DNA from: a virus
Strand: one strand, 5' to 3'
DNA length: 64,000 nt
Virus record (IMG/VR): IMGVR_UViG_3300045988_014525
Of the stretch, positions 1 to 64,000 are shown in pieces. The notes under the pieces were generated by a model that worked only from the letters and a program-made list of their open reading frames with translations, was not told where the DNA came from and searched no databases. The position numbers and the translations under genes are program-made. The stretch's first letter is position 1. Each line of letters starts with the position of its first letter.

Positions 1-2328
1 GTTAATACGATTACCATTCTGAGTCATATCACCAGTATTAATCATAAACTCAACATTCTCACTAGCAGCATTAATATGGTTATCTGCAATATTCTTAGCA
101 GCTATTTTCCATACTTGATATTCATCCCAATTGAAACCTTGTTGATCAGATGTTTGTAAGAACGTCCATTTGTTCTGAATATTAACAGCATCTTTAATAG
201 TGAACTTATAAGTAGGACTTTTATAACTAGAATCACTCATACGTTCAATATAGTATTCATAGTCTCCTGCTGACAATTCAGTTAACACAACTTTATGAGA
301 AGTAAAAGGAGTACCATCAGTAGTAATTGCACGAATACGATTATAATACTTACGAACACCAGTTTCATCTTTAAATGATTCAATACCTGTCCAACCATTA
401 GCTCCTACTTTTCTATAATAAAGCATTTCATCATAGTATCCAACAGATACCCAATTAAAGCAACGACTAGCATTAGGAGCTGTACCTCGACGACCTAATG
501 TCATAGTTACTTTATTAGGTTTAGCAGAATCTAACAAAGTCTTGTTGAAGAATATATTCTTATTTTCAAATGAAGCACGAGGAACATACTTATCAACAGT
601 AGGAATAACATTAGCTTCTAGATTAATGAAGTACATATCATTAGCGTTATTTCTAGCACTAAGAGCTTTAGTAGCTTGATTAACAGGATCCATAGTATAA
701 TACTTAGTGAATAAGTAATTACTAGTTAGATAACCATAAGCAGTATTCTCAGCAGCATCTACTTTATCTGCGTCACCAGCATTAAGTATTTGTAAGCCTA
801 CGAGATCAATATATCCTTTAGATACCCTTATGGGGGTGGTCGCATTATTATATGGATTAGCAACACTAGATGGAGTAGTTCCCCAAGTTAAGAAGAATTT
901 AGCTTTACGATTATCAAATTTAATAAGTTTACCATCGCTAGCTATCCACTCCATATCAAAGGTTTTAACTTTAATACGAGTAGTATTAACATCCATAACT
1001 GAACATTGAGCACCACGAATAAGGAATGTAGAACCTGCTTTTATCTCCCCCCATAAAGGAAGTGTTTCCCAATCTCCACCCTCTGTACCATACTGTAATG
1101 ATAATCCTTTTAGAGATACATCTTTACCAGTAAGATTACTAAGTTCAACGAAGTTATGAGAACACGGATTATAACTATATTCATCACTAGTAATACCTCC
1201 GCAATATAAAGAATTTATATATAGTTTTTGAAGATATAAACTAGTAACATAAACCCAACCAGTATTAGGATCTTCTTGACCACCAGTAGGTTCAGCTTGA
1301 TCAGTATCAAGTTCTTTCTTATAAACAACAAGTTGTCCATTGTTGTTTACTTTAACTCGATAGATTTGACCACTAGGAGCAATCAAACCAATAGTATCAA
1401 GTTTATCGAGAGCTTCGTAATCAATGCTACCTCCACCTCCGCTACCTCCACTACCAGTAAGATTAACAGGTTCTCCGTTTATCTTAGTATATAAACGTTT
1501 AACATCTATGGCAAGAAGAAGTTCGTATTCAACAAACTTCTGAAAGTTAGCTTGTATTTCAGCTAATGTACCATAGTGTCCACAAACAGCTTTAGTAGTT
1601 GGTTCAAAGCCCTCAGCAGTCGGTTCTAGACTATTAGCAATACGGTTGACATTACGAAGAACAATGTTCATCTTTTCACTTGGAGCAACACTAGGATCAA
1701 CAGGCTCATACTTACTAAGTAGAGTACTAGTTACAGTATTGCTAACATGTCCTGGAGTAATAATCAAATCTCTTTGACGAACAATAGTATCCAAATAGTT
1801 TTGGATACTTTGTATTGCTTCTATAACAGAAGCAAGATCATCATTACCAACAACACCTGCTTCTTTGCCAGACGTATCTATCCAAAGAGCATCTTTATTA
1901 ATAGGAGGAGTATCTTGTGCGATAACAGCTTCTACAGTTTTATTAATAACTTCGTCACGTAGATCACTAACTTCTTTGTTAGTATTTTCAATAGTAGTAT
2001 TTACTTCTTCGAATTTATCATCTACGTCTACGAATTTATCATCTATTTCTTTCTTATTATAATAATCAGAAAGATCAGCACTTAATTGTTTAAGTACTAA
2101 ATGTTTGTTTTCAATACCTCCTTTGAACCAATATTCTTCAATTACATTTCCTTCTTTTCTAATACCTACGGTTAAACCTACCGCACGGGTAGGTTTAGTT
2201 AACGCAGATAATGCTTGACCAATATCGTCATAAGGACCATATTTAGCATCTAAATTAGGATACAAATTGAATTGTTCGTCAGTAGCATTGTTAACAATAA
2301 GTTGTCCAACAACAATTCCTTGTTTCAT
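1..2328 (-). CDS. Tail fibre/spike-like protein, C-terminus cut by window edge (fibre-anchor N-domain, Gly linker, lamin-tail-domain-like segment, start of metallophosphoesterase-like domain)
   Basis: Absent from the ORF track because no stop lies in the window. My translation from ATG 2328-2326 (MKQGIVVGQLIVNNATDEQFNLYPNLDAKYGPY...) stays open to position 1 (776 codons). The N-terminal ~78 aa align with the 2947..5769 product. NFVELSNLTGKDVSLKGLSLQY...GEIKAGSTFLIRG is LTD-like. FMINTGDMTQNGN at the edge resembles phosphoesterase motifs. Confidence 0.7.
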   Translation of the reverse strand, partial: MKQGIVVGQLIVNNATDEQFNLYPNLDAKYGPYDDIGQALSALTKPTRAVGLTVGIRKEGNVIEEYWFKGGIENKHLVLKQLSADLSDYYNKKEIDDKFVDVDDKFEEVNTTIENTNKEVSDLRDEVINKTVEAVIAQDTPPINKDALWIDTSGKEAGVVGNDDLASVIEAIQSIQNYLDTIVRQRDLIITPGHVSNTVTSTLLSKYEPVDPSVAPSEKMNIVLRNVNRIANSLEPTAEGFEPTTKAVCGHYGTLAEIQANFQKFVEYELLLAIDVKRLYTKINGEPVNLTGSGGSGGGGSIDYEALDKLDTIGLIAPSGQIYRVKVNNNGQLVVYKKELDTDQAEPTGGQEDPNTGWVYVTSLYLQKLYINSLYCGGITSDEYSYNPCSHNFVELSNLTGKDVSLKGLSLQYGTEGGDWETLPLWGEIKAGSTFLIRGAQCSVMDVNTTRIKVKTFDMEWIASDGKLIKFDNRKAKFFLTWGTTPSSVANPYNNATTPIRVSKGYIDLVGLQILNAGDADKVDAAENTAYGYLTSNYLFTKYYTMDPVNQATKALSARNNANDMYFINLEANVIPTVDKYVPRASFENKNIFFNKTLLDSAKPNKVTMTLGRRGTAPNASRCFNWVSVGYYDEMLYYRKVGANGWTGIESFKDETGVRKYYNRIRAITTDGTPFTSHKVVLTELSAGDYEYYIERMSDSSYKSPTYKFTIKDAVNIQNKWTFLQTSDQQGFNWDEYQVWKIAAKNIADNHINAASENVEFMINTGDMTQNGNRIN
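825..839 (-). repeat. GC motif, degenerate copy
   Basis: cccttatgggggtgg (TAT in place of TAC). Translated as TTPIR. Confidence 0.35.
1045..1062 (+). repeat. GC motif, degenerate copy
   Basis: ctccccccataaaggaag (CAT in place of CGT). Antisense to the gene; translated as LPLWGE. Confidence 0.4.
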
Positions 2329-2946: not shown

Positions 2947-5769
2947 TTACATTAATTCTAAATGTTTACTTTGTAATCTATAACCACCGGGAGGATAAGG
3001 CATTGTATTAACTGTACGTTTTTCAAATGCAGCTATATTTTCAATAATATAACAATATGCCGTTTCATCAGTAACACCACCATTACCTGAATTAAAATTT
3101 TCAATAGAAAATATAGATAAATCTAAAGTAGCAGCAGAACCAAGAATAACTCCCTCAGAAGTTGCCATTCCCCAATTACTTGGGTCTTTAATAGCTTGAT
3201 CTTCTGTTTCACCGGAAAGATAAAGACCTGTATAATAGAAATGATTAATAAAAGATTCTTCTCCAAGATAAACAGCTATTGGATTCAAAGACATATTTAC
3301 TATTTTAATCTTTCCCCAATACTTAGTACTAGTATCTTCTCCATATATTGGAAGATGAATATTAATACTACATTTATTTTGATCAGATAAATCAGAACCA
3401 GTTATAACAATATAAGTATTTTCAGAAGGATCTAATTGATAAATATAATTAGTATCTGTTCTTAAATCTACAAAAAGATATTTATTAAGTACTTGTTGAG
3501 ATACTTCTCCTTTTACCATTTTAACATCACCAGTAGCAAAGTTAACTTGATAATTAGGTGTAAAATTCTCAGTACCAAAGTTTTCATATGCAGTAGTAGC
3601 TACACCATTAGCATCAACTCCTTGTTGACTAAACATATAGTCACCATTGAATACAGCACTACCAATAAGACCATTAGCTATGATACCGATCTTAGTATAT
3701 ATAGCTTCGTAACCTTCGAACTTAATCCAAAATCTTTGATTATTAGCAACAGAAGCACTAGGAGTACTATAAACTTGATCAGTACCTTTCCATGGGCCTT
3801 CATAATTAAGAACATAGAAATTACCATCAGCAGGGTCATATACATAAGGAGCTTTATATTCATCAGAAGTATAAGACTTAGTAGAATCGTAAATACCCTG
3901 AGGATAGATAATCTGATTATGTCCATCAGAACCCGGAAGTCCATTTGTTCCAGTAAGTTTAAAAGGAGTACTCCAATCTAATTCAAGAGAACCAACTTTA
4001 TCTTCATTATCTGAATAATGAATACGAGTTTGAATACACCATATATAAAGTTTCTCTTCCGTAGGAACAGGAACTTCTAATGACCAACCAGTAGGAGTAC
4101 GTTGTTTAGCAATAGTTGAATTAAACGTAGCATCCGGATTAATATCAGTTCCTAGAGAATATCTAGCTTCAATAGAAATTCCCGGAAGTCCATCAATACC
4201 ATTACTACCATTTACTCCATCTCTACCAGCAGGACCGGTATCACCTTTCTTACCAGCTTCGCCAGTAATACATACAGGATCTTCCCAATATCCTTCAATA
4301 GCATTACTAGGAAGAATAGTTGCTTTAGTCATCCACATATAAGGGGATTCAGTAGTAAGAGTTGGAAACTCAACAGTCCAAGCAGCACCCGGATTTCTAT
4401 CTGATCTAGCAATACTAGGATGTTCTGTTGCACTAGAAGAACTAGCAAATCTAAACTCAGTATGTTTACCATCTTGAGCATCTCCATCTCTACCATTGAC
4501 TGGAATGACATCAGACCAACTAACTACTTTATTAGAAGAACCATCAACAGTACCAATACATTGCCACCATTGTCCATCATTAGAATCCGGACTATCTTTC
4601 CAACCAGCAGGAATTAATTCTTGACTAGTAGGTTTAGCAGGAATAGTAGCAGACTTAGCATAGATATAAGTTTTCCAATTAGGAACTGTACCATCTGTAC
4701 CATTAGTACCATCAGCTCCCGGTTTTCCACTCATAAGTACAGGACCTGCCCAATTACTTGCAAGAGTTCCATCAATATTAATCTGAGCAAATATTCCCCA
4801 AACAGCACCGCTACCACTAGGAATAGTAGTAGACCAAGCAGAACCGGGATTAATATTATCTTCATCAAACGGAGGAGCGTTAACATAATCAATAGTTTTT
4901 TGGTACATCATACGAACTCCAACACCTGATTGTCCATCTTCTGCATTAATACGAATAGGAGCACTCCATTGACCTTCGAGTTTACCGTCATTAAACATTC
5001 CAATAGTCATCCAAAGATATTGTCCTTTATCCATTGTAGGAACAATATCAGACCACTCTGAACCGGGATCGTTAGCATTACGATTAATAGCAGGTGCATC
5101 ACTAGGAGATGTATTAACTGCATATTTGAAATTATAATATTTTCCAGCAACACCATCTTCACCAGTGCATTTAATAGGAGTAGACCAACTTGTTACTTTA
5201 CCTGTTGCACCACGTACTTCACCAACTGACATCCACCAAATACCAACAGCTGTTGGAACATCTGACCATCCTGTTGGAACGATATCTTCCCCCGTAGGAG
5301 GGTCTGGTTGTGTAGCAGATTGTTTAAAAACAAATGTCTTCCAATTAGGAACAGTACCTGCTTCACCTGCTGGAATACCAAACTCTAAATCATATAACGG
5401 AGTACCGGATTCATCAGCTCCTTTATATACTACTTCAGCAGTAGGAGCTGCACCTTCGGGAAGAGCTAAAGCAATAGCTTTATCAAACTTTGGAGTCTTA
5501 CCTGCTTCTCCACCTCCACCGCCACTTCCGTTATTCTTAACGACAAGATCAGCATCTCTTACACCACCGTTGAACCAAAATTCTTGTATCGTACTATTCA
5601 CTCGAATACCTACTGTTAGACCAATAGCACGTAATTCATTAGGAATATTAGAAAGAGCTTCGGCAATAGAACTGTAAGGGCCATACTTAAAGTCAAGATT
5701 AGGATACGGTTTAAAATCTTTATCAGTTGCATTGTTATTAATCAACTGACCAACAGTAATTACATTCAT
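2947..5769 (-). CDS. Tail fibre protein with six tandem ~70-80 aa repeats joined by collagen-like G-x-x stretches (940 aa)
   Basis: ORF track; ATG verified. Collagen-like GPAGRDGVNGSNGIDGLPG. Recurring module ...P.GW.D.P....W.......G....WS.PI...G.DG. N-terminus shared with the 1..2328 product. Confidence 0.8.
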   Translation of the reverse strand: MNVITVGQLINNNATDKDFKPYPNLDFKYGPYSSIAEALSNIPNELRAIGLTVGIRVNSTIQEFWFNGGVRDADLVVKNNGSGGGGGEAGKTPKFDKAIALALPEGAAPTAEVVYKGADESGTPLYDLEFGIPAGEAGTVPNWKTFVFKQSATQPDPPTGEDIVPTGWSDVPTAVGIWWMSVGEVRGATGKVTSWSTPIKCTGEDGVAGKYYNFKYAVNTSPSDAPAINRNANDPGSEWSDIVPTMDKGQYLWMTIGMFNDGKLEGQWSAPIRINAEDGQSGVGVRMMYQKTIDYVNAPPFDEDNINPGSAWSTTIPSGSGAVWGIFAQINIDGTLASNWAGPVLMSGKPGADGTNGTDGTVPNWKTYIYAKSATIPAKPTSQELIPAGWKDSPDSNDGQWWQCIGTVDGSSNKVVSWSDVIPVNGRDGDAQDGKHTEFRFASSSSATEHPSIARSDRNPGAAWTVEFPTLTTESPYMWMTKATILPSNAIEGYWEDPVCITGEAGKKGDTGPAGRDGVNGSNGIDGLPGISIEARYSLGTDINPDATFNSTIAKQRTPTGWSLEVPVPTEEKLYIWCIQTRIHYSDNEDKVGSLELDWSTPFKLTGTNGLPGSDGHNQIIYPQGIYDSTKSYTSDEYKAPYVYDPADGNFYVLNYEGPWKGTDQVYSTPSASVANNQRFWIKFEGYEAIYTKIGIIANGLIGSAVFNGDYMFSQQGVDANGVATTAYENFGTENFTPNYQVNFATGDVKMVKGEVSQQVLNKYLFVDLRTDTNYIYQLDPSENTYIVITGSDLSDQNKCSINIHLPIYGEDTSTKYWGKIKIVNMSLNPIAVYLGEESFINHFYYTGLYLSGETEDQAIKDPSNWGMATSEGVILGSAATLDLSIFSIENFNSGNGGVTDETAYCYIIENIAAFEKRTVNTMPYPPGGYRLQSKHLELM
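5286..5302 (+). repeat. GC motif copy
   Basis: cttcccccgtaggaggg. The gene reads PPTGED. Confidence 0.8.
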
Positions 5770-51415: not shown

Positions 51416-51460
51416 TTCAATACAAAATAAGTAATAAACAATTTGTTATACATTATATGT

Positions 51461-51567: not shown

Positions 51568-51587
51568 CCACCCCCGTAAAGGAATGG
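51568..51587 (+). repeat. GC motif copy, intergenic, left arm of a hairpin
   Basis: ccacccccgtaaaggaatgg. Confidence 0.9.
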
Positions 51588-51606
51588 AATTAGCTATTAA
51601 CTACTT

Positions 51607-51626
51607 CTCTTACGGGGGTGGCACAA
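51607..51626 (-). repeat. GC motif copy, intergenic, right arm of a hairpin
   Basis: ctcttacgggggtggcacaa. Confidence 0.9.
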
Positions 51627-55600: not shown

Positions 55601-58600
55601 AATCACTAGGATATTGTAGATTAGCAATAGCTTGCTTATATCGTTCTTCAAATGCTTGTTTTGGCTTAGTCTCTTTATATTTAGTATTAAGCTGCTTCCT
55701 ACGAGTAAAATAGTTATTAACTGCATTAGCTTCATGATAGTTTTCACGATAATTACCAAGTTCATCAATAGTAGATCTCATATCTTGTATTTCAGAAAGA
55801 ATCTCTTCAAGACGTGCAGCATTCTGAGGAGTAAGAGTACTATAATCATTATCAGTCATAGTACTAAGTATTTCTCCTTCTTCTTGCATTAACTTCTTTA
55901 ATTTAATATAAGTTTTAGGATATTTATCTAATATCTTATTTAAATAAAAGTAATCTTGATACATGTCTTTAACATATTGACGTTCTACATTATCAATTAA
56001 GAACTTTTCAAGAGCATCGGCAGCTTTCTTATATTCAATACCATTACGACCGTTTTCATCTTTAATCTGAGCAAGTTTAAGATTATCTTTTAAAGTTTGC
56101 AAAGTATCTAAGAATGTCTGATTATAAGGAAGCAATAAGTTTCCGTTTTCATCTAATATATCATTAAGAGATACATTAACACCATTCTTATTTGCTTCTT
56201 CAATAATCTTAGATACTTCAGCAGTAAATGCAATCTTCTTATCACGAGCATCTATCTCAGCTTTACGAAGTTCTTGCATCATCTTCTTTAATACTATTTG
56301 CACAATAGGAATATGAGTTTCTTGACTATCGGCTAAATAATACTGGAAGAAATTCTCATCTTCAATAGCAGCAGTAATTTCTAACATTCCTGATTTAATA
56401 CGAGGATCGTTAGTAAGACTACTAATATAAGTATCGAAGTACATTTTAGTACTACGTTTAAGAGTATTATCTAAAGCACTAATACGAGTAAACTTGTCTT
56501 TAAGTTGCTTCAATACTTCATTAGTTCTACGCATTCCATCTATCTCTTCTTGTGATTCAGCAATAGCCATTGCTTCATCTATATTATAAGGTTGAAGAGA
56601 TTCAATTATAGAGTAGTCACTAATGAAACGATTAATATCATCGAGAAACATTTCATAACGAGTACGAAGTGATTCATCTTTCAACATCATATCGAATAAC
56701 TTCTTATTAGTAATACTAATGTTCTCAAGAATCTTTCCATCTTTATTTTCAATACGAACAAAGTTATGAACATCAAACAAGAAATCATCAATACGACGAT
56801 TAGTATAACCATTGATAATTTTAAGAGCTTGCTCTCTCATATTATCGTTAAGTTTACTAGCATTATTAGCTCGAAGATCAAGAGTGTTGAAAGAACGAAA
56901 AGCATCGGTAAGAGCATCTTCTTGAATATTAGCATTATTACGTTCAATAGATTCAATTACTTTAGCTATATAATCATTAATCTCTTTATCGTTATCAATA
57001 AGAGCAGATTCGAGGACATCTTCATTTTGGAATGCTTCTTCTGTTTGAACACGAAGTATATTATTGTTAGAGAACTTATCTAATAACTGATTTTGCTTAA
57101 CAACTTGTTCAAGTACAGATCGTCTAGGATAAACAAGTTTAAGCATTCCATTCTCATTGATTTCTTTATTAACAAGATAATCATGAGTCGTTCTAATACT
57201 TTTAGAAGTTACTCTTCCTAAATTAGTTACTACATAATTAGTTCCTTCTTTATTATAACGAAACATTCCTCCCGAACGTAAACCAGTATTATCTATCACA
57301 GATTGAAGAACAGGAACAAATGCAATACCATTAGTCTTAACATCTGATAGAGTTTGATTAATACTAGTTTTAAGTTGAGTGTAATAAGGCGATTCAGAAT
57401 TATCACTACGTTTAGTTCTAAGTTGAACTTCATTAGCTTCTATCTTAGCATTAGCAATACGTTCACGTTCAGCAACTAAATCTGCATTATTACGGTTAGA
57501 AATAGCAACGCGAATATTCTCGAAGTTGGTATTAGGAACAACAACAGTATAATCTTTTATTCCTGCCTCTTCTAGTTGATTCATAGTATCTATAATAGTT
57601 TTATTATCAGAACTAGAGATAACATATTTATTAGCAGGTGATAAGTTAGATGATTCCTTTACGGGGGAAGTCAAAACTATCGCATTAAGAACATCTGCTA
57701 TTCCTAAACTAGAACCTTCATTAGTTATACTAGGAATAATTAAGAACTTACGAGATTTACTATTAATACCTTTGCTTACTTGTGTAATGGCAGGAATAGA
57801 ATTATAATAAAAATCTAATGATTTATTAATAGCATCAACAGGAAGAAAACGATTATTTTCTAGATTAATACTAACATCAGCAATCTCATTATCTTCTAGC
57901 TTATTAAGAGGAATAAGATCAACAGTCGAACCATGATTAATAACTTTAAACAAAGTAGATTCATTACTATTTTGATACATATTAGTTTTAATATAGCTTT
58001 TAGTAACTGGGTCTTTTTCACTACCAGTAACTATTCTTCTAAGTCTAGCTTCTTTAATACTAATAGTTGCTGCGCCTAATTGATTAAAAGTAATTCTAGG
58101 AGAATTCTTATACTTCTTGTTTTCAAACGAATAAACATCAGGAAGATTAGGATTACTTCTAAAGAATATATCTTTTAATTCATCTATTGCTTGTCCTCTA
58201 TCTAACGTATCATAAGAACTAGTTTCTTCAATTGTATTCTTTATAAGGTTATCAATAGCTTTCTCAGAATCTAATATAATTCCAGTTCCAGTAGACAATC
58301 CATTATTAGAATCAATACCGTTATCTTCTGTATAAAGAAGTTCAGCAGGAATAATTTTACTAACGCTACCTCCTTTAAAAGAATAACCTTCTACTACAAT
58401 ACCATAACGAACTAAATCCATAGCTGTTAATTTAACAAATGGATTATCACTATTCCAAGCATTACGAAACATTTGATATTGAGCTTCGGTAGATATAGTA
58501 CTATCAATAATAGTTATTTGATCTTTACTATTACGACGACCACGATATTCAACATTAAGATTCTTAAATAGATTATTATCAGAAGTAACATTTTGCATAA

Positions 58601-61600: not shown

Positions 61601-64000
61601 GAGTATTACTAATATTATCAATTAGTTTCTTAACAATTTGAAGACCTGCTTTATTCTCACCGTCCATATGTTGAGGAACATCTTGTTGAGTATAAAGATT
61701 AGAATAATAACCAGTCTTATAATGAGTTTGAAGAGATGAACTAAAGCTAGCTAACTCTTCTCCCTTACGGGGGAAGTTACCTTCTGAATCCCATAACTTT
61801 AATACCTTACTAGTAGTAGCTTTTTCGGTAGTAGTAAAATTAGCTTGAGAAATACCATTATCATTCATCATCTTAGCAAGAGCGCCAAGTTCAGTATTAC
61901 CTAAGAATCTAGGAATAAGAACAAATTCTGCATTCTTAATTTGAATAGGATTAACTAATCCATCTTCTATTTCTAGATCATAATAGAAGTTCTTTTGAAC
62001 TTGAATAAACTTACTAATACCTTCTAAAGCAGCACCATCAATAGGTTTAGATTCATCATAAAGAGCTTCAATAACATCTTTATAATTATCATATTCACCA
62101 CGAAGATATATACGACGAACAAATTCATCTAGAGTAATAAATGATTGAGCATCGGTAACTTCACTACGATCTTTAGAGAATTGCTTAAGAATAAACTCAG
62201 CACTTTCTTTAGAAACACCTGCTTCTTTAAGTTGTTTCTTAATATCAGATAAAGTAGAACCGCTACTCTGAACATCTTCAAGAGTAATATATTTAAACGT
62301 ACTAGTAATAGGAATAGTTTTGTTACCTACTTTAATTCCATCGTTAAGAACGAAATCTTTATTATAAAGATTATAAGCAGCATAACTAAGACCGCCTGCT
62401 TGATATTCTTTATTACGTTTAATAGTATCACGAGAATCTTTATAGAATGCTTCGTCTCCAAAGAACATATCATTAAGATTAGCATATTGAATCTCATAAT
62501 TAAGAACCATCTCAGATATGAACTTATTGAATTCTTGATCACTAGCATTCTTATATCTATCAACATATTGTTTCTTATCTCCGTACTGAGCAATACCTTC
62601 ACGAACTCTATATTTAATATAACCATCTATATAATTATAGACTTTAGCAAGAGTATCATTATCAAGAACTATTTCTAGTTCATTGTTTTCATTGCGTCTC
62701 ATAAAAGTCTTGCTTTCACTTCCCCCGTAAAGGAGTGACATCAAGCCATCTTCTCCGAATACACTGTTTAGATTACGAGATTCAGAACTATCATTCTTAT
62801 CAATAAGAAGACTTCTAAATTGAAAGACATTACCAGTAGGTTTACCGTTCTTAAGAATAGTACCTTTCTTATAATGATAATTCAACTTAGCATTACTAGA
62901 ACGAAGATCTTTAAACTCATCTTTAACTACTAGTTTATCTCCAAGAGTAACAATACCATCAACATCATTTGTAACAAACAAATAGTCAATAGCTTGTGCC
63001 ATAGCATTAAGTTCTTTCTGAAACGAGTTTAAGAAAGACTTATAAATAGCATGATTACGATTTACATTACCATTAAGAGAAAGACCTTCAATACTAAGTT
63101 TATAACTATTAAATACAAAAGTCTTAGGAGCATCAGAAGGAGTTTGAGTAAAATACTTAGCACGACGAACTCCTTTGGTTATTTCAAATAAATCTCCTGT
63201 ATTTGCGAATTCATTAAGAGTAACAATATCCCATTCAAGAGCATTAATGTCTTTATAGGACTTAGATTTATTAGTTACTTCATTACGAATACCATTGAAT
63301 AATTCAGAACCGAATTCTCTATAATAAGGAGTAAGTTCGTAACCAGTTTCAGTAATACGAAGGAAACCGGGAATTATTTGACCATTACTAAGTTTTTGTT
63401 CAATAAGAATATTAGTATTACGATAAGCAGGAACATCTAGAAACTTAAGTAGATATTCTTTAAACTCTTCGTTAGCCATAGGATTATCATTATAATCTTT
63501 ATTGTTAACACGTTCAAAGAATCTACCAATATAATTGTTCTTTAGTATATCACTAACAAGATTATTCTCAGCATTAATACTATTGAATTCATTTTCTACA
63601 ATTTGATAATCTTTAAAACGATTAGCAATTCTATCTGCAATCTTATTAGCAGAACCATCAATAGAAGTAAGAGAAGATCTATCAAAATTAACTATCTTAT
63701 AGTCGGGATTAACGCTTTGTTTCTTATATTCTTCTTTATACCAAGCACGTTCAATTGCATTATTACGAGTAATAGTTTCACTAGCATTACTTACAACTTT
63801 AATAAATTCTTCTAAGTCAGAAATAATACTATTGATATTACTAACAGTATCAGCGCTATCCCTAGAGATATAATTAAGAACGCCTTCACGAGTGATACCA
63901 AAATTGTATCTATTAATAATGGCAGACAACTCCTCAGATATCTGTTGTATCTCAGAGTTTTTAATAGATTCATCAGAAACATTTTTAATTGAATTAATTC
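52668..64000 (-). CDS. Giant virion RNA polymerase-containing protein (crAss-type vRNAP), N-terminus beyond the window edge
   Basis: The track ORF 52668..63929 starts at an in-frame TTG. My reading of 63930-64000 (…INSIKNVSDESIKNSEIQQISEEL) shows no stop, so the ORF exceeds 3776 codons. GADFDIDS at 60846-60860 resembles the NADFDGD metal-binding motif of double-psi beta-barrel RNAPs. Confidence 0.75.
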   Translation of the reverse strand, partial: INSIKNVSDESIKNSEIQQISEELSAIINRYNFGITREGVLNYISRDSADTVSNINSIISDLEEFIKVVSNASETITRNNAIERAWYKEEYKKQSVNPDYKIVNFDRSSLTSIDGSANKIADRIANRFKDYQIVENEFNSINAENNLVSDILKNNYIGRFFERVNNKDYNDNPMANEEFKEYLLKFLDVPAYRNTNILIEQKLSNGQIIPGFLRITETGYELTPYYREFGSELFNGIRNEVTNKSKSYKDINALEWDIVTLNEFANTGDLFEITKGVRRAKYFTQTPSDAPKTFVFNSYKLSIEGLSLNGNVNRNHAIYKSFLNSFQKELNAMAQAIDYLFVTNDVDGIVTLGDKLVVKDEFKDLRSSNAKLNYHYKKGTILKNGKPTGNVFQFRSLLIDKNDSSESRNLNSVFGEDGLMSLLYGGSESKTFMRRNENNELEIVLDNDTLAKVYNYIDGYIKYRVREGIAQYGDKKQYVDRYKNASDQEFNKFISEMVLNYEIQYANLNDMFFGDEAFYKDSRDTIKRNKEYQAGGLSYAAYNLYNKDFVLNDGIKVGNKTIPITSTFKYITLEDVQSSGSTLSDIKKQLKEAGVSKESAEFILKQFSKDRSEVTDAQSFITLDEFVRRIYLRGEYDNYKDVIEALYDESKPIDGAALEGISKFIQVQKNFYYDLEIEDGLVNPIQIKNAEFVLIPRFLGNTELGALAKMMNDNGISQANFTTTEKATTSKVLKLWDSEGNFPRKGEELASFSSSLQTHYKTGYYSNLYTQQDVPQHMDGENKAGLQIVKKLIDNISNTPEGQSLIKDFFDCFTANIQESFNDAASRIGVEINNKGEITYDGETVAIDNNKFIALIKDELTRRGLDSNYRKYAEINPETGLPYMPAWSNLVRSKLESIVNSIFTNNITRQTLKGFHASQVVNIGMTELGESLKGKIGDFTQSKFEDKHGYKLGRKLNFHKDGSQIIEILLPKWQVKAYNTYDAEGNLIKEVTLEDLQKAGLDTMIGYRIPTEGKQSIGIMKVVGLLDETQGSTIVVPDDWVLQTGADFDIDSIYGIYHAAYFDRNGKPNKVEYIDGEDEVSTYRRYIGYINSLIDKETRKATSSEFTKEEFKEARKAARETVRKANEEYDKFLTDQVRDLIAETDETWAVLPREVKDNLTITFKSKELKFGERVDAIVSKMNFYESEYANDEYVAKFAQQYRNIQSVINEQREFYQNVKDNAEQLAIDYADETRRARLEQTIQARAEIVGAMSLEEFSQLTVAQQNTRDARNNKIVDTFINIMNLPVSIGENLSSSNFEDIKNAKTTVFGNLSEVYRNINSVIAQNWYRDANMSGARLKAISVNHDNFVSISNKAKTTIEGLYGGFKFTYSYANEAEAKKKLTVLNKRFGKKNVKREDNTITVNHNMLGWSYDNLNIDDRLLTPYSSETTALILDGVKEGGVPNVDLYTFDVYKSIVNCGANYETSIRFVNQPIVTELINRQNANDNVFGEQGFSPITTVRRDLYMAIAKANGRTAKKTDTLDSLKKYIESIGINENEFLDKGMPVEVLKKYSNDSFKNGIDKVENVEDLIAQLKVLNVFEHYKNIADQVNSNMRVITSDKFGAGKSVNEIDQVLKRIRELKDKNFNSGKTSTNPVLTSDYGSYLIGAIYPKTSFRNINEVNSDKSESAYPSLYYQLKYSCIATKMIIQDSGIFKTQTPAFKSLINAFDVNSLKTIQKLESFIINLGQAQSTFVNTNRFMTKSTNEFIPSYNLNLLSSQEDIRARLYGYVDIVGKFDVSDLSEANVEKFMKLSPANKVAIMQNVTSDNNLFKNLNVEYRGRRNSKDQITIIDSTISTEAQYQMFRNAWNSDNPFVKLTAMDLVRYGIVVEGYSFKGGSVSKIIPAELLYTEDNGIDSNNGLSTGTGIILDSEKAIDNLIKNTIEETSSYDTLDRGQAIDELKDIFFRSNPNLPDVYSFENKKYKNSPRITFNQLGAATISIKEARLRRIVTGSEKDPVTKSYIKTNMYQNSNESTLFKVINHGSTVDLIPLNKLEDNEIADVSINLENNRFLPVDAINKSLDFYYNSIPAITQVSKGINSKSRKFLIIPSITNEGSSLGIADVLNAIVLTSPVKESSNLSPANKYVISSSDNKTIIDTMNQLEEAGIKDYTVVVPNTNFENIRVAISNRNNADLVAERERIANAKIEANEVQLRTKRSDNSESPYYTQLKTSINQTLSDVKTNGIAFVPVLQSVIDNTGLRSGGMFRYNKEGTNYVVTNLGRVTSKSIRTTHDYLVNKEINENGMLKLVYPRRSVLEQVVKQNQLLDKFSNNNILRVQTEEAFQNEDVLESALIDNDKEINDYIAKVIESIERNNANIQEDALTDAFRSFNTLDLRANNASKLNDNMREQALKIINGYTNRRIDDFLFDVHNFVRIENKDGKILENISITNKKLFDMMLKDESLRTRYEMFLDDINRFISDYSIIESLQPYNIDEAMAIAESQEEIDGMRRTNEVLKQLKDKFTRISALDNTLKRSTKMYFDTYISSLTNDPRIKSGMLEITAAIEDENFFQYYLADSQETHIPIVQIVLKKMMQELRKAEIDARDKKIAFTAEVSKIIEEANKNGVNVSLNDILDENGNLLLPYNQTFLDTLQTLKDNLKLAQIKDENGRNGIEYKKAADALEKFLIDNVERQYVKDMYQDYFYLNKILDKYPKTYIKLKKLMQEEGEILSTMTDNDYSTLTPQNAARLEEILSEIQDMRSTIDELGNYRENYHEANAVNNYFTRRKQLNTKYKETKPKQAFEERYKQAIANLQYPSDSETYREAVAWLDANTNYRLSPEFIRELNNVYKQTKRGNPITGYILTMSRGKYDKNGIIDGTRFNPTQIENIKKHEEQMLLAAKNRLVEKDRESQAWINERIEWRNTPYYENEYVKANQLGKEGFEKWYNENHVFNPLTNEYEPLMIWRQRVVKDEARYMEYSPKSKWLETKVKDKYYNPKFVDNKLQPSTDRYTNDKYYAMNNYQQQLYSSVSNLLDGLVKDKRSRAYINKGYLPNQAIEKEDKGFKDYWQDFKRSHGWYDAPNKSDIEFNLYKRFSNAPMLHSLSQVKPLPIRDKQEGETKEEYIKYVEETLATNRELHRQRMEETKERNNPNVLERLNSFIDQMYLFNSRNDASRLAKITINQLRNMDFIKRAPNNEISSNRLLSRITGKEELRTFKNENANITKHFESQVRKLIFNEFELDEGTRSKVSRVLRNMVSSKFMMLNLTGGIANVLYGKTQIQMEMAAGQYFKYSDFRKAENEYALSIGSYFADAYSETTNSETNAIIRLFNILESDMATETYGKGSNPLGKLEDLLFIQQSAGEHYMQNTTLLAMLNSHRVSVDENGKAAVISYETFTQNLRENSLIKVLNEVNPDLVNTYNEYRNKIKESFAVKEQFNRFKQDMVTNFLRTQSKEVRDKFVAQYKEDSKEQRSKFDKLPTFRSQLTLSNGVAILKEDSPLTNADIADFRNKVLTVNHHIHGIYDKIGANTLQQSWWGALLMQFHKHLVPGFQKRFGYRLGHFDGVYNETRETINKGSYVSLAEFITFPVRKYYELNNSNELEAVRTLQGIAKGYVDFFGNFVTYYNVLPEYDKANLRRCLGEWIAITKAVALFVVGKLMLDDDDESTQIADYVLYSADRLMSETIQYNPWGMMNEGQKLYSQPVAAFSIANDNLKLLGACCSYIFTGDADDLLYQSGTYSGENKLKVNLLKQVPVVNQIRKHERLGANNSYYKVRQSPFSGLGQFIANKITGEED
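53283..53299 (-). repeat. GC motif, weaker copy (G4)
   Basis: cttccttacggggaaag. The gene reads FPVRK. Confidence 0.4.
57654..57672 (-). repeat. GC motif copy inside the giant gene
   Basis: ttcctttacgggggaagtc. The gene reads TSPVKES. Confidence 0.9.
60846..60860 (-). other. DFDID catalytic-type DxDxD motif of the giant protein
   Basis: Plus strand atcaatatcaaagtc is the reverse complement of GAC TTT GAT ATT GAT. Confidence 0.7.
61760..61776 (-). repeat. GC motif copy inside the giant gene
   Basis: ctcccttacgggggaag. The gene reads NFPRKGE. Confidence 0.85.
62719..62735 (+). repeat. GC motif copy inside the giant gene
   Basis: cttcccccgtaaaggag. The gene reads SLLYGGSE. Confidence 0.9.

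What the first reader, a model, noticed from the sequence alone, without database searches (positions are those of the whole stretch)
825..62735. Dispersed GC-rich word (core CCCCCGTA; consensus C[CT][AT]CCCCCGTAAAGGAA) present at least 22 times on both strands, conserved at nucleotide rather than protein level
The window is visibly AT-rich, roughly one-third GC by eye. Assuming G=C~0.15 and A=T~0.35, the octamer CCCCCGTA is expected about 0.2 times on both strands of 64 kb. That figure is my rough estimate, not a computed statistic. I read 22 exact octamers, nearly all extended to 13-21 nt. Plus-strand copies start at 5286, 8541, 12675, 18550, 20788, 23132, 27867, 35871, 42465, 51568 and 62719. 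Minus-strand copies start at 7906, 13404, 23301, 29551, 34561, 41341, 44360, 47558, 51607, 57654 and 61760. Degenerate copies lie at 825, 1045, 44248 and 53283. Two copies in unrelated genes on opposite strands are identical over 21 nt (CCACCCCCGTAAAGGAATGTG, 18550-18570 and 27867-27887). Three copies share TTGTGCCACCCCCGTAA (27862-27878, 42460-42476, and 51610-51626 in reverse complement). Inside genes the word is translated in five of the six possible orientation/phase combinations. These are CCC-GTA-AAG (TPVKD, SPVEK, TPVKE, SPVKE, TPVRK), CCC-CGT-AAG (FPRKG), NNT-ACG-GGG-GAx (PTGED, LTGEV, STGED, FTGVD, FTGEV, LTGGS, LTGEE), TTA-CGG-GGG (PLRGK) and TAC-GGG-GGA (LYGGS). The DNA/RNA word is therefore conserved, not a peptide. 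It occurs in late, early and vRNAP genes with no bias for strand or transcription direction. That argues against a simple promoter or terminator. It favours either a duplex-DNA site (protein binding, nicking, modification, or a packaging or recombination landmark) or a tiny in-frame mobile insertion. I know of no described element of this kind in crAss-like phages, but I cannot search the literature here.
Basis: partly seen in the sequence, partly recalled or inferred. Interest (0 to 1): 0.9.

Follow-up and report, generated by a model that had tools for sequence, protein, structure and literature searches.

The report
Evenly spaced strand-specific crAss-phage DNA signal
A 17-26 base GC-rich DNA word is written about every 5-6 kb on each strand of this gut phage and of its whole family, including the prototype crAssphage. 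It is kept at the DNA level, not the protein level, and looks like an undescribed punctuation signal for the phage's own DNA-handling machinery.

Summary
CCCCCGTA occurs 22 times (0.10 expected). With proteins and codon usage held fixed, 17 coding copies compare with 0.17 expected. A weight matrix finds 25 discrete sites (consensus C-Y-W-CCCCCGTA-R-R-G-G-A-R).

The window is an Intestiviridae crAss-like phage near crAss002. Lineage-specific versions of the word occur 19-34 times in crAss002, R. jaberico, cr271_1 and p-crAssphage. Many sit at the same protein-alignment columns, sometimes in a different reading phase.

The word follows phage lineage, not host. Two Steigviridae that infect jaberico's host strain have none. 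A 17-mer form is at chance level in 596 Gb of cellular genomes.

The new result is spacing. Same-strand copies are never under 1.7 kb apart (0 of 37 close neighbour pairs) and are under-dispersed (CV 0.28-0.60). Opposite-strand copies are independent of each other, apart from an excess of tight inverted pairs in intergenic regions.

This implies strand-polar reading. Simple promoter, terminator, peptide, hairpin, host Chi and mobile-insertion readings are not supported.

My best guess (about 0.3) is preferred primer-start or initiation sites for the phage replication-recombination machinery. Rivals are a phage-private Chi-like signal, nick sites and an operator-like binding site. I found no prior description.

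The parts
823..839 (-). Degenerate motif copy (CCACCCCCATAAGGGTA) in the gp19-like tail gene, which runs off the window's left edge; sense orientation
   Evidence: PWM 27.1 bits. Orthologous site in crAss002 at 18658. gp19 homology.
1045..1061 (+). Degenerate motif copy (CTCCCCCCATAAAGGAA) in the gp19-like gene; antisense orientation
   Evidence: PWM 26.8 bits. Orthologous site in crAss002 at 18446.
5286..5302 (+). Motif copy in the tail-fibre-like ORF 2947-5769(-); antisense
   Evidence: Exact core. PWM 26.6. Pfam PB4_spike/collagen hits for the ORF.
7905..7921 (-). Motif copy in the gp15-like ORF 7323-8219(-) (crAss002 gp15, annotated 'putative tail sheath protein'); sense; encodes PTPVKD
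   Evidence: Exact core. Same alignment column in crAss002 and jaberico.
8541..8557 (+). Motif copy in the gp14-like ORF 8221-8880(-); antisense
   Evidence: Exact core. PWM 33.0. Degenerate orthologue in crAss002 at 14245.
12675..12691 (+). Motif copy in the gp11-like ORF 11581-12846(-); antisense; encodes STGED
   Evidence: Exact core. A site lies in the same low-complexity linker in all five Intestiviridae genomes.
13401..13417 (-). Motif copy near the 3' end of the portal gene 13236-15686(-); sense. Specific to this lineage.
   Evidence: Exact core. Relatives at about 67% identity align without a gap at the site (in three of five) but lack the word.
18550..18566 (+). Motif copy in the gp7-like ORF 18242-18778(-); antisense
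   Evidence: Exact core. PWM 35.0. Orthologue in crAss002 at 4221.
20788..20804 (+). Motif copy at the 3' end of the gp3-like ORF, 26 nt before the start of the PD-(D/E)XK exonuclease gene; antisense
   Evidence: Exact core. Orthologue in crAss002 at 2214 and in many IMG/VR relatives.
23132..23148 (+). Left member of a convergent pair in the divergent intergenic, origin-like region
   Evidence: Exact core. Lies inside 51-nt inverted arms that flank 12-nt tandem repeats.
23304..23320 (-). Right member of the same convergent pair
   Evidence: Exact core. Inverted repeat I1.
27867..27883 (+). Motif copy in ORF 27470-27928(+); sense
   Evidence: Exact core. PWM 36.5, the best in the window.
29549..29565 (-). 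Motif copy at the very 3' end of ORF 29091-29570(+); antisense
   Evidence: Exact core. PWM 30.8.
34560..34576 (-). Motif copy in the DNA polymerase gene 32647-34839(+); antisense; encodes SLTGGS
   Evidence: Exact core. Same column in crAss002 polymerase. Kept in relatives at about 76% identity that were not selected for this site.
35870..35886 (+). Motif copy in the helicase gene 35353-36822(+); sense; encodes NSPVKE
   Evidence: Exact core. Same alignment column in all five genomes.
41341..41357 (-). Motif copy in the primase gene 40521-41657(+); antisense; encodes SPLRGK
   Evidence: Exact core. Same column in all five genomes but in differing reading phases.
42465..42481 (+). Motif copy in the gp55-like ORF 42125-42604(+); sense
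   Evidence: Exact core. PWM 31.7.
44362..44378 (-). Single intergenic copy, 135 nt after an intrinsic terminator and about 190 nt before the next gene
   Evidence: Exact core. Terminator at 44199-44230. Orthologous intergenic site in crAss002 at 71227.
47558..47574 (-). Motif copy in the DUF932 gene 46806-47891(+); antisense
   Evidence: Exact core. Orthologue in crAss002 at 67659. Pfam DUF932.
51568..51584 (+). Left member of a tight convergent intergenic pair (cores 47 nt apart)
   Evidence: Exact core. The pair folds as an ssDNA hairpin at -14.6 kcal/mol, z -3.9. A corresponding tight convergent pair lies in crAss002 at 64740/64787, by position in the collinear gene order.
51605..51621 (-). 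Right member of the tight convergent pair
   Evidence: Exact core.
53283..53299 (-). Degenerate copy (CTTTCCCCGTAAGGAAG) in the giant virion RNA polymerase gene; sense
   Evidence: PWM 20.0. No site at the aligned place in crAss002 or jaberico.
57654..57670 (-). Motif copy in the virion RNA polymerase gene; sense
   Evidence: Exact core. Orthologue in crAss002 at 58947.
61760..61776 (-). Motif copy in the virion RNA polymerase gene; sense
   Evidence: Exact core. Relatives carry a decayed or proto-site, TTCCCCTCTAAAG, at the same place.
62719..62735 (+). Motif copy in the virion RNA polymerase gene; antisense; encodes LLYGGS
   Evidence: Exact core. Same column, an LYGG island, in all five genomes.

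Best explanation
The word is a cis-acting DNA signal private to the phage family Intestiviridae. It is read in a strand-polar way by a phage-encoded enzyme of DNA replication or recombination, not by the translation or ordinary transcription apparatus.

The specific mechanism I commit to is preferred initiation (primer-start) sites. When the motif-bearing strand is exposed as a template, synthesis starts opposite the invariant T of 5'-CCCCC-G-T-A-3'. This follows the logic of the T7 and T4 primases: a 'GT' plus a cryptic 3' base, giving primers that start pppAC. The product would be a G-rich primer, pppACGGGGG, which would hold firmly in a 30%-GC genome. The purine-rich 3' flank would serve as the docking site.

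Each strand keeps one such site about every 5-7 kb, so forks moving in either direction can prime. Forks in both directions are expected for a circularly permuted, headful-packaged genome that replicates through recombination. Tight convergent pairs in intergenic regions would act as outward-firing start points.

Shown: the site is real, selected at the DNA level, family-wide, co-evolving by lineage, independent of host, and evenly spaced per strand.

For: 1. DNA-level selection. 22 copies against 0.10 expected. 17 coding copies against 0.17 in codon-preserving shuffles. Five reading phases are used. In the primase gene the word occupies one alignment column in differing phases.

2. A discrete site class. 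PWM scores are at least 17 for almost every site against under 10 for background; the only intermediates are five calls of 10.6-16.9 bits in crAss002, jaberico and cr271_1.

3. Family-wide, with concerted lineage variants. CG occurs in the window, cr271_1 and p-crAssphage, CA/CG in crAss002, and TG in jaberico. This implies a co-evolving reader.

4. Deep positional conservation. 12 of 15 alignable window sites have a site at the orthologous place in crAss002. The helicase, primase, gp11-like and vRNAP sites are shared by all five genomes.

5. Population level. Between two p-crAssphage strains the core columns show 4 mismatches in 310 positions, against 4.8% in the flanks. Several 2-nt changes restore the consensus.

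6. Not set by the host. Jaberico has 24 sites; K. frurule and K. tikkala, which infect the same strain, have 0. The 17-mer gives 62 scattered single hits in 596 Gb of cellular genomes, against about 70 expected by my arithmetic.

7. Strand polarity.
- 0 of 37 neighbour pairs under 1.6 kb apart are same-strand (P = 7e-12).
- Same-strand spacing has CV 0.28-0.60 and a minimum of 1.7-7.1 kb (1.7-3.5 kb in nine of the ten genome-strand sets); spacing CV is below random in all ten sets.
- Cross-strand proximity is as expected under independence, 36 observed against 34.
- Strand alternation is fully explained by two independent arrays, 98 changes against 98.4 expected.

8. Geometry at the origin-like region (iterons, AT-rich palindrome). 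The two copies face each other, so synthesis templated on the motif strand runs outward. The same arrangement occurs in jaberico and p-crAssphage. Tight pairs under 150 nt are enriched, 12 against 3.3.

9. Context. The family's primase is DnaG/TOPRIM-like with a Cys-less zinc-ribbon-like N-terminus. crAss002 is predicted to be headful-packaged and circularly permuted. RecT, SSB and a neighbouring unknown gene are found only in Intestiviridae by BLAST.
Against: - Nothing here shows a primer or any other product starting at the site.
- Known DnaG-type primases need only trinucleotides. I know of no precedent for 17-26-nt primase sites dispersed through a genome.
- The per-strand spacing of 5-7 kb is longer than typical 1-3 kb Okazaki fragments.
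- There is no orientation bias by replichore around the putative origin. My hand count from the positions for crAss002 is 19 to 15.
- Plasmid and phage single-strand initiation sites are hairpins. Here single sites fold weakly (MFE -2 to -5 kcal/mol, z -0.2 to -1.2) and show no covariation beyond column composition.
- About a quarter of sites are intergenic (33 of 129), often between a terminator and the next gene. Single intergenic copies mostly put the G-rich strand in the mRNA sense; my hand tally is 16 to 4. These points fit a transcription-linked role as well or better.
- Conserved flanks on both sides of the proposed start, including an extra 5' CGCTTCGCTCCGCT module in a subset, are not explained.
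Confidence: 0.3

Rival explanations
1. A phage-private, Chi-like polar signal. A phage-encoded helicase or exonuclease that resects DNA ends (PD-(D/E)XK exonuclease, RecD/Dda-like helicase, RecT) is stopped or switched when it meets the word in the right orientation. This would protect and recombine the randomly placed ends of a circularly permuted genome, and would mark phage DNA as 'self' against host DNA that lacks the word.
For: - The orientation-specific even spacing on both strands is what a signal for enzymes entering from either side needs.
- The word is essentially absent from cellular genomes, so it could discriminate self from host.
- crAss002 is predicted to be headful-packaged and permuted, whereas crAss001, which lacks the word, has terminal repeats.
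- RecT and SSB are Intestiviridae-specific by BLAST. The window encodes a RecD-like SF1 helicase and has a weak, sub-threshold PD-(D/E)XK nuclease match.
Against: - Known Chi sites are 5-8 nt and are read by the host RecBCD or AddAB. This word is 17-26 nt and follows phage lineage, not host.
- No phage-encoded Chi reader is known.
- It does not explain the excess of tight inverted pairs in intergenic regions or the orientation bias of single intergenic copies.
- These phages also carry a Gam-like (Gp157) gene.
Confidence: 0.17
2. Recognition sites of a sequence-specific DNA-binding protein (regulatory or architectural). This would resemble mycobacteriophage stoperators or the dispersed, asymmetric C1 operators of phage P1. 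The protein would bind single sites as a monomer and inverted pairs cooperatively.
For: - The site is long, asymmetric and information-rich, with lineage-specific variants.
- Sites are about 3-fold enriched in intergenic DNA (33 of 129 sites against roughly 5-11% non-coding).
- Tight inverted pairs lie in the divergent control region and between terminators and gene starts.
- Hairpin and covariation tests give no support for a folded nucleic acid.
Against: - A static duplex binder should not care about orientation. Yet exclusion applies only to same-strand copies, and opposite-strand copies are placed independently.
- Stoperators are co-oriented with transcription; these are 42 sense to 54 antisense.
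- The phages are virulent and no repressor is known.
- Most sites lie deep inside genes, at positions conserved across the family.
Confidence: 0.15
3. Sites of strand-specific nicks in virion DNA. A phage nickase (for example one of the HNH endonucleases) would cut one strand at each word, as in phages T5, phiKMV and the tf/Rembedalsseter group.
For: - This is the closest documented class. Short motifs are conserved across only distantly similar relatives, sit mostly inside genes, and have unknown function (PMC11780129).
- The phiKMV nick consensus is of similar length (my knowledge).
- The strand specificity of the spacing fits.
- The window encodes a NUMOD4-HNH endonuclease; a DNA ligase gene (42601-43812) is inferred from crAss002 gp54 homology.
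Against: - Tight opposite-strand pairs 21-130 nt apart are enriched, not avoided. If both copies were nicked, the genome would be held there by only a few dozen AT-rich base pairs.
- T5 nicks lie on one strand (my knowledge) and the tf-type nick motif mostly on the coding strand; here the strands are equal.
- There is no read-level evidence.
Confidence: 0.13
4. Compact promoters for a phage-encoded RNA polymerase, like the 23-bp promoters of T7-type phages. Transcription would start at the A opposite the invariant T and run toward the C-rich side. Copies in the 'wrong' orientation would make antisense or primer RNAs.
For: - Information content, copy density (about 1 per 3 kb) and lineage-specific drift resemble T7, T3 and SP6 promoters.
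- Single intergenic copies lie after terminators and 20-260 nt before start codons, mostly oriented to give sense RNA (hand tally 16 to 4).
- Both copies in the divergent region point outward.
- The crAss-like virion RNA polymerase transcribes single-stranded DNA and has no known promoter (10.1101/2020.03.07.982082).
Against: - Inside genes, 42 copies would drive antisense RNA against 54 driving sense RNA.
- Sites occur in early, late and polymerase genes alike.
- The phi14:2 study found no common motif upstream of early transcripts. It assigned middle and late transcription to the host polymerase.
Confidence: 0.1
5. An RNA-level element. On transcripts that carry the G-rich complement (YUCCYYUACGGGGGRR), a small hairpin with G-U pairs, or the long hairpins formed by tight pairs, would act in processing, stability or termination.
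For: - The complement strand folds somewhat better than shuffles (z -0.7 to -2.5).
- Positions opposite the C-run are purine-only. This is what G-C and G-U tolerance on the complement would give.
- Tight pairs form strong hairpins, -12 to -25 kcal/mol.
Against: - Nearly half of the coding copies put the C-rich strand in the mRNA, where the helix would contain C-A mismatches.
- There is no covariation beyond column composition.
- crAss002 and jaberico change the loop and the closing pair.
- No T-run follows the pairs.
- There are no Rfam matches.
- Per-strand spacing on the untranscribed strand has no RNA rationale.
Confidence: 0.06
6. A miniature mobile insertion, or a by-product of conserved peptides or composition.
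For: Some sites lie in lineage-specific loops or low-complexity linkers, such as the primase loop and the gp11-like linker.
Against: - Gain and loss occur by substitutions without indels at 13414 and 53296, and with a single-base gap at 61773.
- There are no target duplications or flanking repeats.
- Codon-preserving shuffles give 0.17 against 17.
- The same word appears in unrelated genes, in five phases and in intergenic DNA.
Confidence: 0.02

Closest known systems
Primase recognition sites of T7 (5'-GTC-3', strong sites GGGTC/TGGTC) and T4 (5'-GTT-3'), and plasmid single-strand initiation sites (RSF1010 ssiA/ssiB on opposite strands of oriV)
   Same: All are strand-specific and read on the template strand. 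All have a 'GT' followed by a 3' base that need not be copied. The 5' flank sets the primer sequence. The ssiA/ssiB sites form an inverted pair at an origin, like the convergent pairs here. (These comparisons rest on my knowledge of those systems. The geometry here comes.)
   Different: Those primase sites are 3-5 nt and very frequent. The ssi sites are about 40-nt hairpins present once per strand at an origin. This word is 17-26 nt, is not a stable hairpin, is dispersed about every 5-7 kb per strand, and has no demonstrated priming.
Chi sites (RecBCD/AddAB crossover hotspot instigators)
   Same: Both are over-represented, lie inside genes in any reading frame, are polar in action, and occur at a density of roughly one per 5 kb.
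   Different: Chi is 5-8 nt, is defined by the host enzyme and is abundant in the host genome. This word is 17-26 nt, follows phage lineage, is absent from cellular genomes, and shows no replichore skew.
DNA uptake signal sequences (USS of Pasteurellaceae, DUS of Neisseriaceae)
   Same: USS and DUS are 'self' tags with lineage dialects. They occur in both orientations equally, and 35-65% lie inside ORFs. Karlin noted significantly even spacing. Some occur as inverted pairs, and they are enriched in non-coding DNA (PMC1939737).
   Different: Uptake is independent of orientation, and these sequences belong to competent bacteria. Here the exclusion is orientation-specific, the bearer is a virulent phage, and the density is far lower.
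Nick-associated motifs of phages T5, phiKMV and tf/Rembedalsseter (WACTRTGAC)
   Same: All are dispersed short words conserved across related phages with little nucleotide similarity. They lie about 88% inside genes and their function is unknown (PMC11780129).
   Different: Those motifs sit mostly or wholly on one strand and are clustered toward one genome end. Here the strands are equal, the spacing is even, and close opposite-strand pairs are favoured. No nick has been shown.
Mycobacteriophage L5 stoperators and phage P1 C1 operators
   Same: Dozens of asymmetric 13-17-bp sites are dispersed through a phage genome, including inside genes.
   Different: Those bind a lysogeny repressor, and stoperators are co-oriented with transcription (my knowledge). 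Here the phages are virulent and orientation is balanced.
T7-type phage RNA polymerase promoters
   Same: About 20 bp, high information content, 1 per 2-3 kb, lineage-specific drift matched to the polymerase, and a G-rich start.
   Different: All T7 promoters point the way the genes run. Here nearly half would point against the genes.

Membership tests
Chi site | Specified by the host RecBCD/AddAB, hence shared by phages of one host and abundant in the host genome | tested here: not met
   Jaberico has 24 sites; K. frurule and K. tikkala on the same host strain have 0. The 17-mer gives 62 scattered single hits in 596 Gb, with no named Bacteroides or Phocaeicola genome (five hits are unclassified Bacteroidota MAG contigs, not examined).
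Chi site | Short (5-8 nt) recognition sequence | tested here: not met
   Informative positions span 17 nt in the window and up to about 26 nt in p-crAssphage and jaberico.
Chi site | Polar action on a translocating helicase-nuclease | not testable with these tools
   Only indirect evidence: exclusion is specific to same-strand copies.
DNA uptake sequence (USS/DUS) | Over-represented self tag, both orientations, inside ORFs in several frames, evenly spaced | tested here: met
   For the USS properties see PMC1939737.
DNA uptake sequence (USS/DUS) | Orientation-independent recognition of duplex DNA by a competence receptor | tested here: not met
   Exclusion applies only to same-orientation copies (0 of 37 close pairs). 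The bearer is a phage with no competence system.
Nick-associated phage motif (T5, tf, phiKMV) | A physical single-strand break at the motif in virion DNA | not testable with these tools
   This needs native long-read or end-mapping data.
Nick-associated phage motif (T5, tf, phiKMV) | Motif conserved across related phages beyond the general level of sequence similarity | tested here: met
Nick-associated phage motif (T5, tf, phiKMV) | Nicks confined to, or strongly biased toward, one strand | tested here: not met
   The window has 12 plus-strand and 13 minus-strand sites, and four of the five genomes are near-balanced (cr271_1 is 6 plus to 13 minus). Close opposite-strand pairs are enriched.
Primase recognition / single-strand initiation site | Strand-specific template signal containing the initiating bases | tested here: inconclusive
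   Per-strand spacing and an R-T-R centre with a near-invariant T, preceded by a C-run, are compatible. No product has been mapped.
Primase recognition / single-strand initiation site | Stable hairpin in single-stranded DNA (G4-type and RSF1010-type ssi) | tested here: not met
   Single sites have MFE -2 to -5 kcal/mol, z -0.2 to -1.2, and no covariation. Only the tight pairs fold strongly.
Promoter (host sigma-type or phage RNA polymerase) | Co-orientation with the genes downstream | tested here: not met
   42 sense to 54 antisense inside genes. Only single intergenic copies show a bias (hand tally 16 to 4).
Intrinsic terminator | GC-rich hairpin followed by a T-run, placed at gene ends | tested here: not met
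   In the one region scanned (40-56 kb), the terminator hits lie elsewhere (44199-44230, 51459-51488, 52644-52613). The motif pair at 51568-51621 is not followed by a T-run.
Miniature mobile element / in-frame insertion | Presence or absence as an indel with defined boundaries | tested here: not met
   Sites absent in relatives align without gaps (13414, 53296) or with a single-base gap (61773), and differ by substitutions.
Stoperator / dispersed operator | Fixed orientation relative to transcription, and a cognate repressor | tested here: not met
   Orientation is balanced. No lysogeny genes are reported for crAss002. Binding was not tested.
Curated RNA family (Rfam) | Match to a covariance model | tested here: not met
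   0 matches in the window at gathering thresholds.

The most novel reading that the evidence does not exclude
Intestiviridae genomes, including the prototype crAssphage, may carry a hard-wired, strand-specific punctuation code: one private 17-26-nt signal about every 5-7 kb on each strand. This code would tell the phage's own replication-recombination machinery where to start (defined primer or Okazaki start sites) or where to stop (a phage-encoded Chi analogue). It would also mark the DNA as phage rather than host. Either reading would be a kind of genome organisation not described for any virus.
Probability: 0.4. Interest if true: 0.9.

Novelty: new variant of a known kind. Interest (0 to 1): 0.8.

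Why it matters
CrAss-like phages are the most abundant viruses of the human gut. The 2023 Crassvirales review I read says their mode of replication is unknown (PMC10136315). It describes no promoter motif, origin of replication or DNA nick.

This word gives a concrete, testable handle. It defines about 20-35 precisely placed sites per genome that are under clear DNA-level selection, co-evolve with the phage lineage, and are laid out separately on each strand.

If the sites are primer starts, nick sites or Chi-like signals, they would expose how these genomes are copied, recombined or protected.

The word also has practical uses:
- as a sequence signature for recognising Intestiviridae contigs;
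- as an explanation for islands of frozen codons inside their genes;
- as a warning for codon-level evolutionary analyses and synthetic recoding.

More generally, orientation-specific even spacing is a simple statistic. It separates signals read by tracking enzymes from static binding sites.

Tried and rejected
- Chance or composition: rejected.
- Peptide-level conservation: rejected. See the codon shuffles, the five phases and the phase shift at the primase site.
- Hairpin in single sites: folding is weak and inconsistent. Outer pairs show no covariation beyond column composition.
- Functional pairing of neighbouring opposite-strand sites, suggested by the striking alternation in crAss002 (30 of 33): rejected as the primary pattern. 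Circularly shifting one strand's array reproduces the alternation, 98 against 98.4. The apparent 3.6-kb convergent units in crAss002 are not seen in the other genomes.
- Inversion or recombination at the sites: gene order is collinear in all five genomes. Identity profiles against 95-97% relatives show no breakpoints at the sites.
- Host-determined signal: rejected.
- Direct-repeat deletion hazard as the cause of same-strand exclusion: judged implausible by inference. Copies share only about 11-14 identical bases and the exclusion reaches 2-3 kb.
PHROGs, Pfam and NCBIfam say nothing useful about the candidates, so no reader was identified.
- Simple identity comparison of motif against flanks between the window and crAss002 is uninformative (78% against 75%), because the consensus itself differs between lineages.
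- Literature searches for the word and for crAss motifs, nicks or promoters found nothing relevant.
- A weak pyrimidine patch 30-45 nt 3' of the sites was seen; it may be the remains of decayed partner copies. Complementarity to the purine arm is present in 24% of sites against 13% of controls. It remains unexplained.

Full report
**1. The observation**

Dinucleotide-preserving shuffles give a mean of 0.10 and never more than 1. The window has 31.8% G+C.

Aligning the copies gives a 17-nt asymmetric consensus, C-Y-W-CCCCCGTA-R-R-G-G-A-R. There are no pyrimidines at the six positions after GTA in 21 of 22 copies.

A weight matrix built from the copies separates sites cleanly. In the window, 25 sites score 20-36.5 bits, nothing scores 10-20 bits, and mononucleotide shuffles give at most two hits at 10 bits or more. 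The fourth (44248) does not reach the threshold.

I shuffled synonymous codons within each gene, so that every protein and each gene's codon usage stay fixed. This gives 0.17 coding copies on average (maximum 2 in 1000 shuffles) against 17 observed. Five of the six orientation/phase combinations are used inside genes. The sixth would place TAA or TAG in frame.

**2. What the window is, and where else the word occurs**

The window is a crAss-like phage. Its nearest named relative is Bacteroides phage crAss002 (Intestiviridae), at about 73-77% nucleotide identity in conserved genes, with collinear gene order.

crAss002 carries the same word as its most enriched octamer: 14 CCCCCGTA, 15 CCCCCATA and 4 CCCCTGTA. 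Whole genomes from the other Intestiviridae subfamilies carry lineage-specific versions:

| Genome | Consensus | Sites |
|---|---|---|
| R. jaberico | ATTGnTGTAAnnT-CCCCTGTA-RAGGAG | 29 |
| cr271_1 | aGCT-CCCCCGTA-GAAGAR | 19 |
| p-crAssphage (ZA) | GAC[C/T]-CCCCGT[A/G]-GAGGATGGAG | 31 |
| crAss002 | TT-CCCCC[G/A]TA-AAGGAG | 34 |

Other families lack the word. These are crAss001, K. tikkala and K. frurule (Steigviridae) and cr127_1 (Crevaviridae). Some of them have different enriched words of their own.

**3. Phage lineage, not host**

R. jaberico, K. tikkala and K. frurule were isolated on the same strain, B. cellulosilyticus WH2 (PMC10569736). Jaberico has 24 regex-defined sites and the two Steigviridae have none.

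The 17-mer CTTCCCCCGTAAAGGAA occurs three times in this window. It gives only 62 single, taxonomically scattered hits in one genome for each of 185,579 bacterial and archaeal species (596 Gb). My arithmetic gives about 70 expected by chance. No named Bacteroides or Phocaeicola genome is among the hits (five are unclassified Bacteroidota MAG contigs, which I did not examine).

So the word is not a host Chi site, not a host repeat and not a host restriction-related feature. The concerted shift of the central CpG also points to a co-evolving, phage-encoded reader. It becomes TG in 21 of 26 exact-core copies in jaberico and CA in about half of the crAss002 sites.

**4. Conservation in place**

Of 15 window sites that can be aligned to crAss002 through flanks that are 66-85% identical, 12 have a matrix-positive site at the orthologous position. 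This includes sites in relatives that were not selected for that site.

In protein alignments, the sites in the helicase, primase, gp11-like protein and giant virion RNA polymerase fall on the same columns in all five genomes. They form islands (SPVKE, LYGG, STGE) in otherwise unconserved stretches. In the primase the same column holds the word in different reading phases, giving PLRG in three genomes and PLYGG/ILYGG in two.

Sites that differ between relatives do so by point substitutions, without indels (13414, 53296) or with a single-base gap (61773). This removes the mobile-insertion idea.

Between two p-crAssphage strains that are 96.5% identical:
- the core columns (CCCCGT, GAGG) show 4 mismatches in 310 positions, against 4.8% in 100-nt flanks;
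- the known degenerate columns toggle freely;
- several two-base differences take a deviant copy back to the consensus.

**5. The layout: each strand has its own evenly spaced array**

Across 138 sites in five genomes, 37 neighbouring pairs lie less than 1.6 kb apart. None of them is a same-strand pair (P = 7e-12 if strands were assigned at random).

Same-strand spacing averages 5-7 kb (7-11 kb in cr271_1), is never below 1.7 kb, and has a coefficient of variation of 0.28-0.60. Spacing CV is lower than for random placement in all ten genome-strand sets (P at most 0.04, mostly at most 0.001).

Opposite-strand copies ignore each other. 36 plus-strand sites have a minus-strand site within 1.6 kb, against 34 expected. 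The exception is an excess of tight pairs under 150 nt (12 against 3.3, P = 0.0005). Most of these are convergent and most are in intergenic DNA.

crAss002 shows striking strand alternation (30 of 33 neighbours). This is fully accounted for by two independent regular arrays (98 changes observed, 98.4 expected).

The genomes share ancestry, so these tests are not independent replicates. Even so, the pattern holds in subfamilies that share only a minority of sites.

Copies share only about 11-14 identical bases, so I consider a deletion hazard between direct repeats too weak to explain a 2-3-kb exclusion zone (inference). The simplest reading is that the word is read directionally, either by something that tracks along DNA or on one exposed strand. 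A second copy in the same orientation close by would then be redundant.

**6. What it is not**

- Not a simple promoter. Inside genes, 42 copies are in the sense orientation and 54 in the antisense.
- Not an intrinsic terminator. In the 40-56 kb region I scanned, the canonical terminators lie elsewhere: 44199-44230, 51459-51488 and 52644-52613.
- Not a known RNA family.
- Not a stable hairpin. Single sites fold at -2 to -5 kcal/mol, with z-scores of -0.2 to -1.2 on the motif strand and -0.7 to -2.5 on the complement. Predicted structures are inconsistent, and the variable outer positions pair no more often than shuffled columns.
- Not a site of inversion. Gene order is collinear across the family.

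Only the tight pairs fold strongly, at -12 to -25 kcal/mol as single-stranded DNA.

**7. Clues to function**

About a quarter of sites are intergenic (33 of 129) in genomes that are 89-95% coding. USS elements show a similar enrichment, so this need not mean transcription.

In the window, the single intergenic copy at 44362-44378 and the pair at 51568-51621 lie just after canonical terminators and 190-260 nt before the next gene.

The pair at 23132-23148 and 23304-23320 sits inside 51-nt inverted arms that flank 12-nt tandem repeats. Next to it lie an AT-rich perfect palindrome and a cluster of GC-rich words. Together these look like an origin of replication. The two copies face each other there. 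Synthesis that used the motif-bearing strand as template would therefore run outward on both sides. The divergent regions of jaberico and p-crAssphage have the same arrangement.

The centre of the word is R-T-R with a near-invariant T, preceded by a C-run. From my knowledge of T7 and T4 primases, those enzymes read 5'-GTC/GTT-3', leave the 3' base uncopied and start primers with pppAC. By analogy, 5'-CCCCCGTA-3' would template pppACGGGGG. That is an unusually stable primer for a 30%-GC genome.

The family's primase is DnaG/TOPRIM-like, with an N-terminal segment that resembles the zinc ribbon but lacks the cysteines. The PDB profile hit is weak (2au3_A, E = 0.038).

crAss002 is predicted to package by the headful mechanism and to be circularly permuted, whereas crAss001, which lacks the word, has terminal repeats (PMC8042965, PMC10136315). 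RecT, SSB and an adjacent unknown gene are detectable only in Intestiviridae by BLAST. A permuted genome that replicates through recombination would see forks and ends in both directions everywhere. That would explain why both strands need signals throughout.

**8. Best explanation and rivals**

I commit to strand-specific initiation (primer-start) sites for the phage replication-recombination machinery, at about 0.3. What is shown is the existence, selection, lineage specificity, host independence and per-strand layout of the sites.

Against this explanation:
- known primases need only trinucleotides;
- the spacing exceeds typical Okazaki lengths;
- there is no replichore bias;
- the intergenic placement would suit a transcription-linked role equally well.

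Rivals, with my confidence in each:
- A phage-private Chi-like stop or switch signal for end-resecting enzymes (0.17). It fits the layout and the 'absent from host' property, but has no precedent at this length.
- An operator-like binding site (0.15). It fits the intergenic pairs, but not the orientation-specific exclusion.
- Strand-specific nick sites as in T5, phiKMV and tf-like phages (0.13). This is the closest documented class (PMC11780129), but the enrichment of close opposite-strand pairs argues against it.
- Promoters of a phage RNA polymerase (0.10).
- An RNA hairpin on G-rich transcripts (0.06).
- Mobile insertion, peptide or chance (0.02).

**9. Comparison with known systems, and novelty**

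In genome statistics the closest analogue is the DNA uptake sequence of Haemophilus and Neisseria. These are over-represented self tags with lineage dialects, found in both orientations, mostly inside genes, with noted even spacing, some inverted pairs and enrichment in non-coding DNA (PMC1939737). Uptake is orientation-blind, however, and belongs to competent bacteria.

Chi shares polarity and density, but fails on length and host specificity. Nick motifs share the phage context and conservation, but fail on strand balance. Primase and ssi sites share strand specificity and the origin geometry, but fail on length, hairpin and dispersion.

I therefore file the word as a new variant of the known kind 'dispersed genome-wide cis signals', not as a member of any one family.

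I found no description of it in the crAss002 paper, the phi14:2 polymerase paper, a 2023 Crassvirales review, or full-text searches for the sequence itself. The library does not cover all journals.

Noticed in passing
window 22740-22900: A dense cluster of GC-rich words (GTGCGCA, ACGTGCGTAC, ACACGTG) lies in the AT-rich divergent intergenic region. It is immediately followed by a perfect AT-rich palindrome (arms 22858-22877 and 22881-22900). The combination looks like part of a replication origin or packaging site.
   Followed up: partly
window 23203-23286, 23627-23677, 23827-23877: Three arrays of 12-nt tandem repeats (for example CTCAAGTTACTA x5; ATAGAGTTAGTR; ATAAAGTTAATG), iteron-like, lie between the divergent gene blocks. 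The first array is flanked by the 51-nt inverted arms that contain two motif copies.
   Followed up: partly
window 23365-23380, 23504-23519, 23776-23791: Three copies of a small perfect hairpin, TGTTCTC-G(T/A)A-GAGAAT, with extended palindromic flanks, lie upstream of the first rightward genes. Two copies occur in the close relative L084 and none in crAss002. They resemble the hairpin promoters of the phage N4 virion RNA polymerase. Untested.
   Followed up: partly
window 19511-19760: A 250-bp segment (ORF 19510-19764, 84 aa) is absent from all three IMG/VR relatives that are 95-97% identical (L084, L105, L004). This is a recent gene-sized insertion or deletion.
   Followed up: no
L129+L130 (crAss001) and L135+L136 (K. 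tikkala): Kehishuvirus genomes carry 35-38 copies of CTTCTGGA(G) on both strands, in several phases. K. frurule, which is in the same family and shares a host with K. tikkala, shows no enrichment (8 CTTCTGGA, 0 CTTCTGGAG). Close same-orientation pairs occur, so this word behaves differently from the Intestiviridae word.
   Followed up: partly
L131+L132 (cr127_1, Crevaviridae): A GC-rich element of about 45 nt (ACGAATTTCGGAACACCTCTCGCCCTTGTGGCCATTAAAC) occurs 10 times in a 26%-GC genome. Most copies are intergenic and co-oriented with the downstream genes, which is promoter-like. There are two convergent pairs.
   Followed up: no
L001/L002 (crAss002: 4221, 47851, 86211, 89659, 64740/64787) and L127/L128 (ZA: 5971, 28208, 28314, 45084, 58612, 94408, 96615): A subset of motif copies carries an extra GC-rich module of the type CGCTTCGCTCCGCT directly 5' of the C-run. 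The module is shared by two subfamilies and is commoner at intergenic copies.
   Followed up: no
all five Intestiviridae genomes, +30 to +45 relative to the first C of the core: A pyrimidine-rich patch (purine fraction 0.25-0.43 against about 0.48) lies 3' of the sites even when no partner copy is present. It is complementary to the purine arm over at least 5 nt in 24% of sites, against 13% of controls. It may be the remains of decayed partner copies.
   Followed up: partly
window 44199-44230 (+), 51459-51488 (+), 52644-52613 (-): Three strong canonical intrinsic terminators (13-14-bp stems with a GAAA-type tetraloop; the two plus-strand ones are followed by a T-run, the minus-strand one only by a weaker T-rich tail) mark the ends of transcription units. 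The last sits at the convergence of the replication block and the virion RNA polymerase gene.
   Followed up: no
window 40521-41657 and alignment A1: The Crassvirales primase keeps a DnaG-like 'SPFRxDxHPSxGF ... RDFAG..GD.FD' segment where bacterial DnaG has its CHC2 zinc ribbon, but without the cysteine ligands. Intestiviridae have an extra loop in the TOPRIM region, and that loop holds the motif copy.
   Followed up: partly
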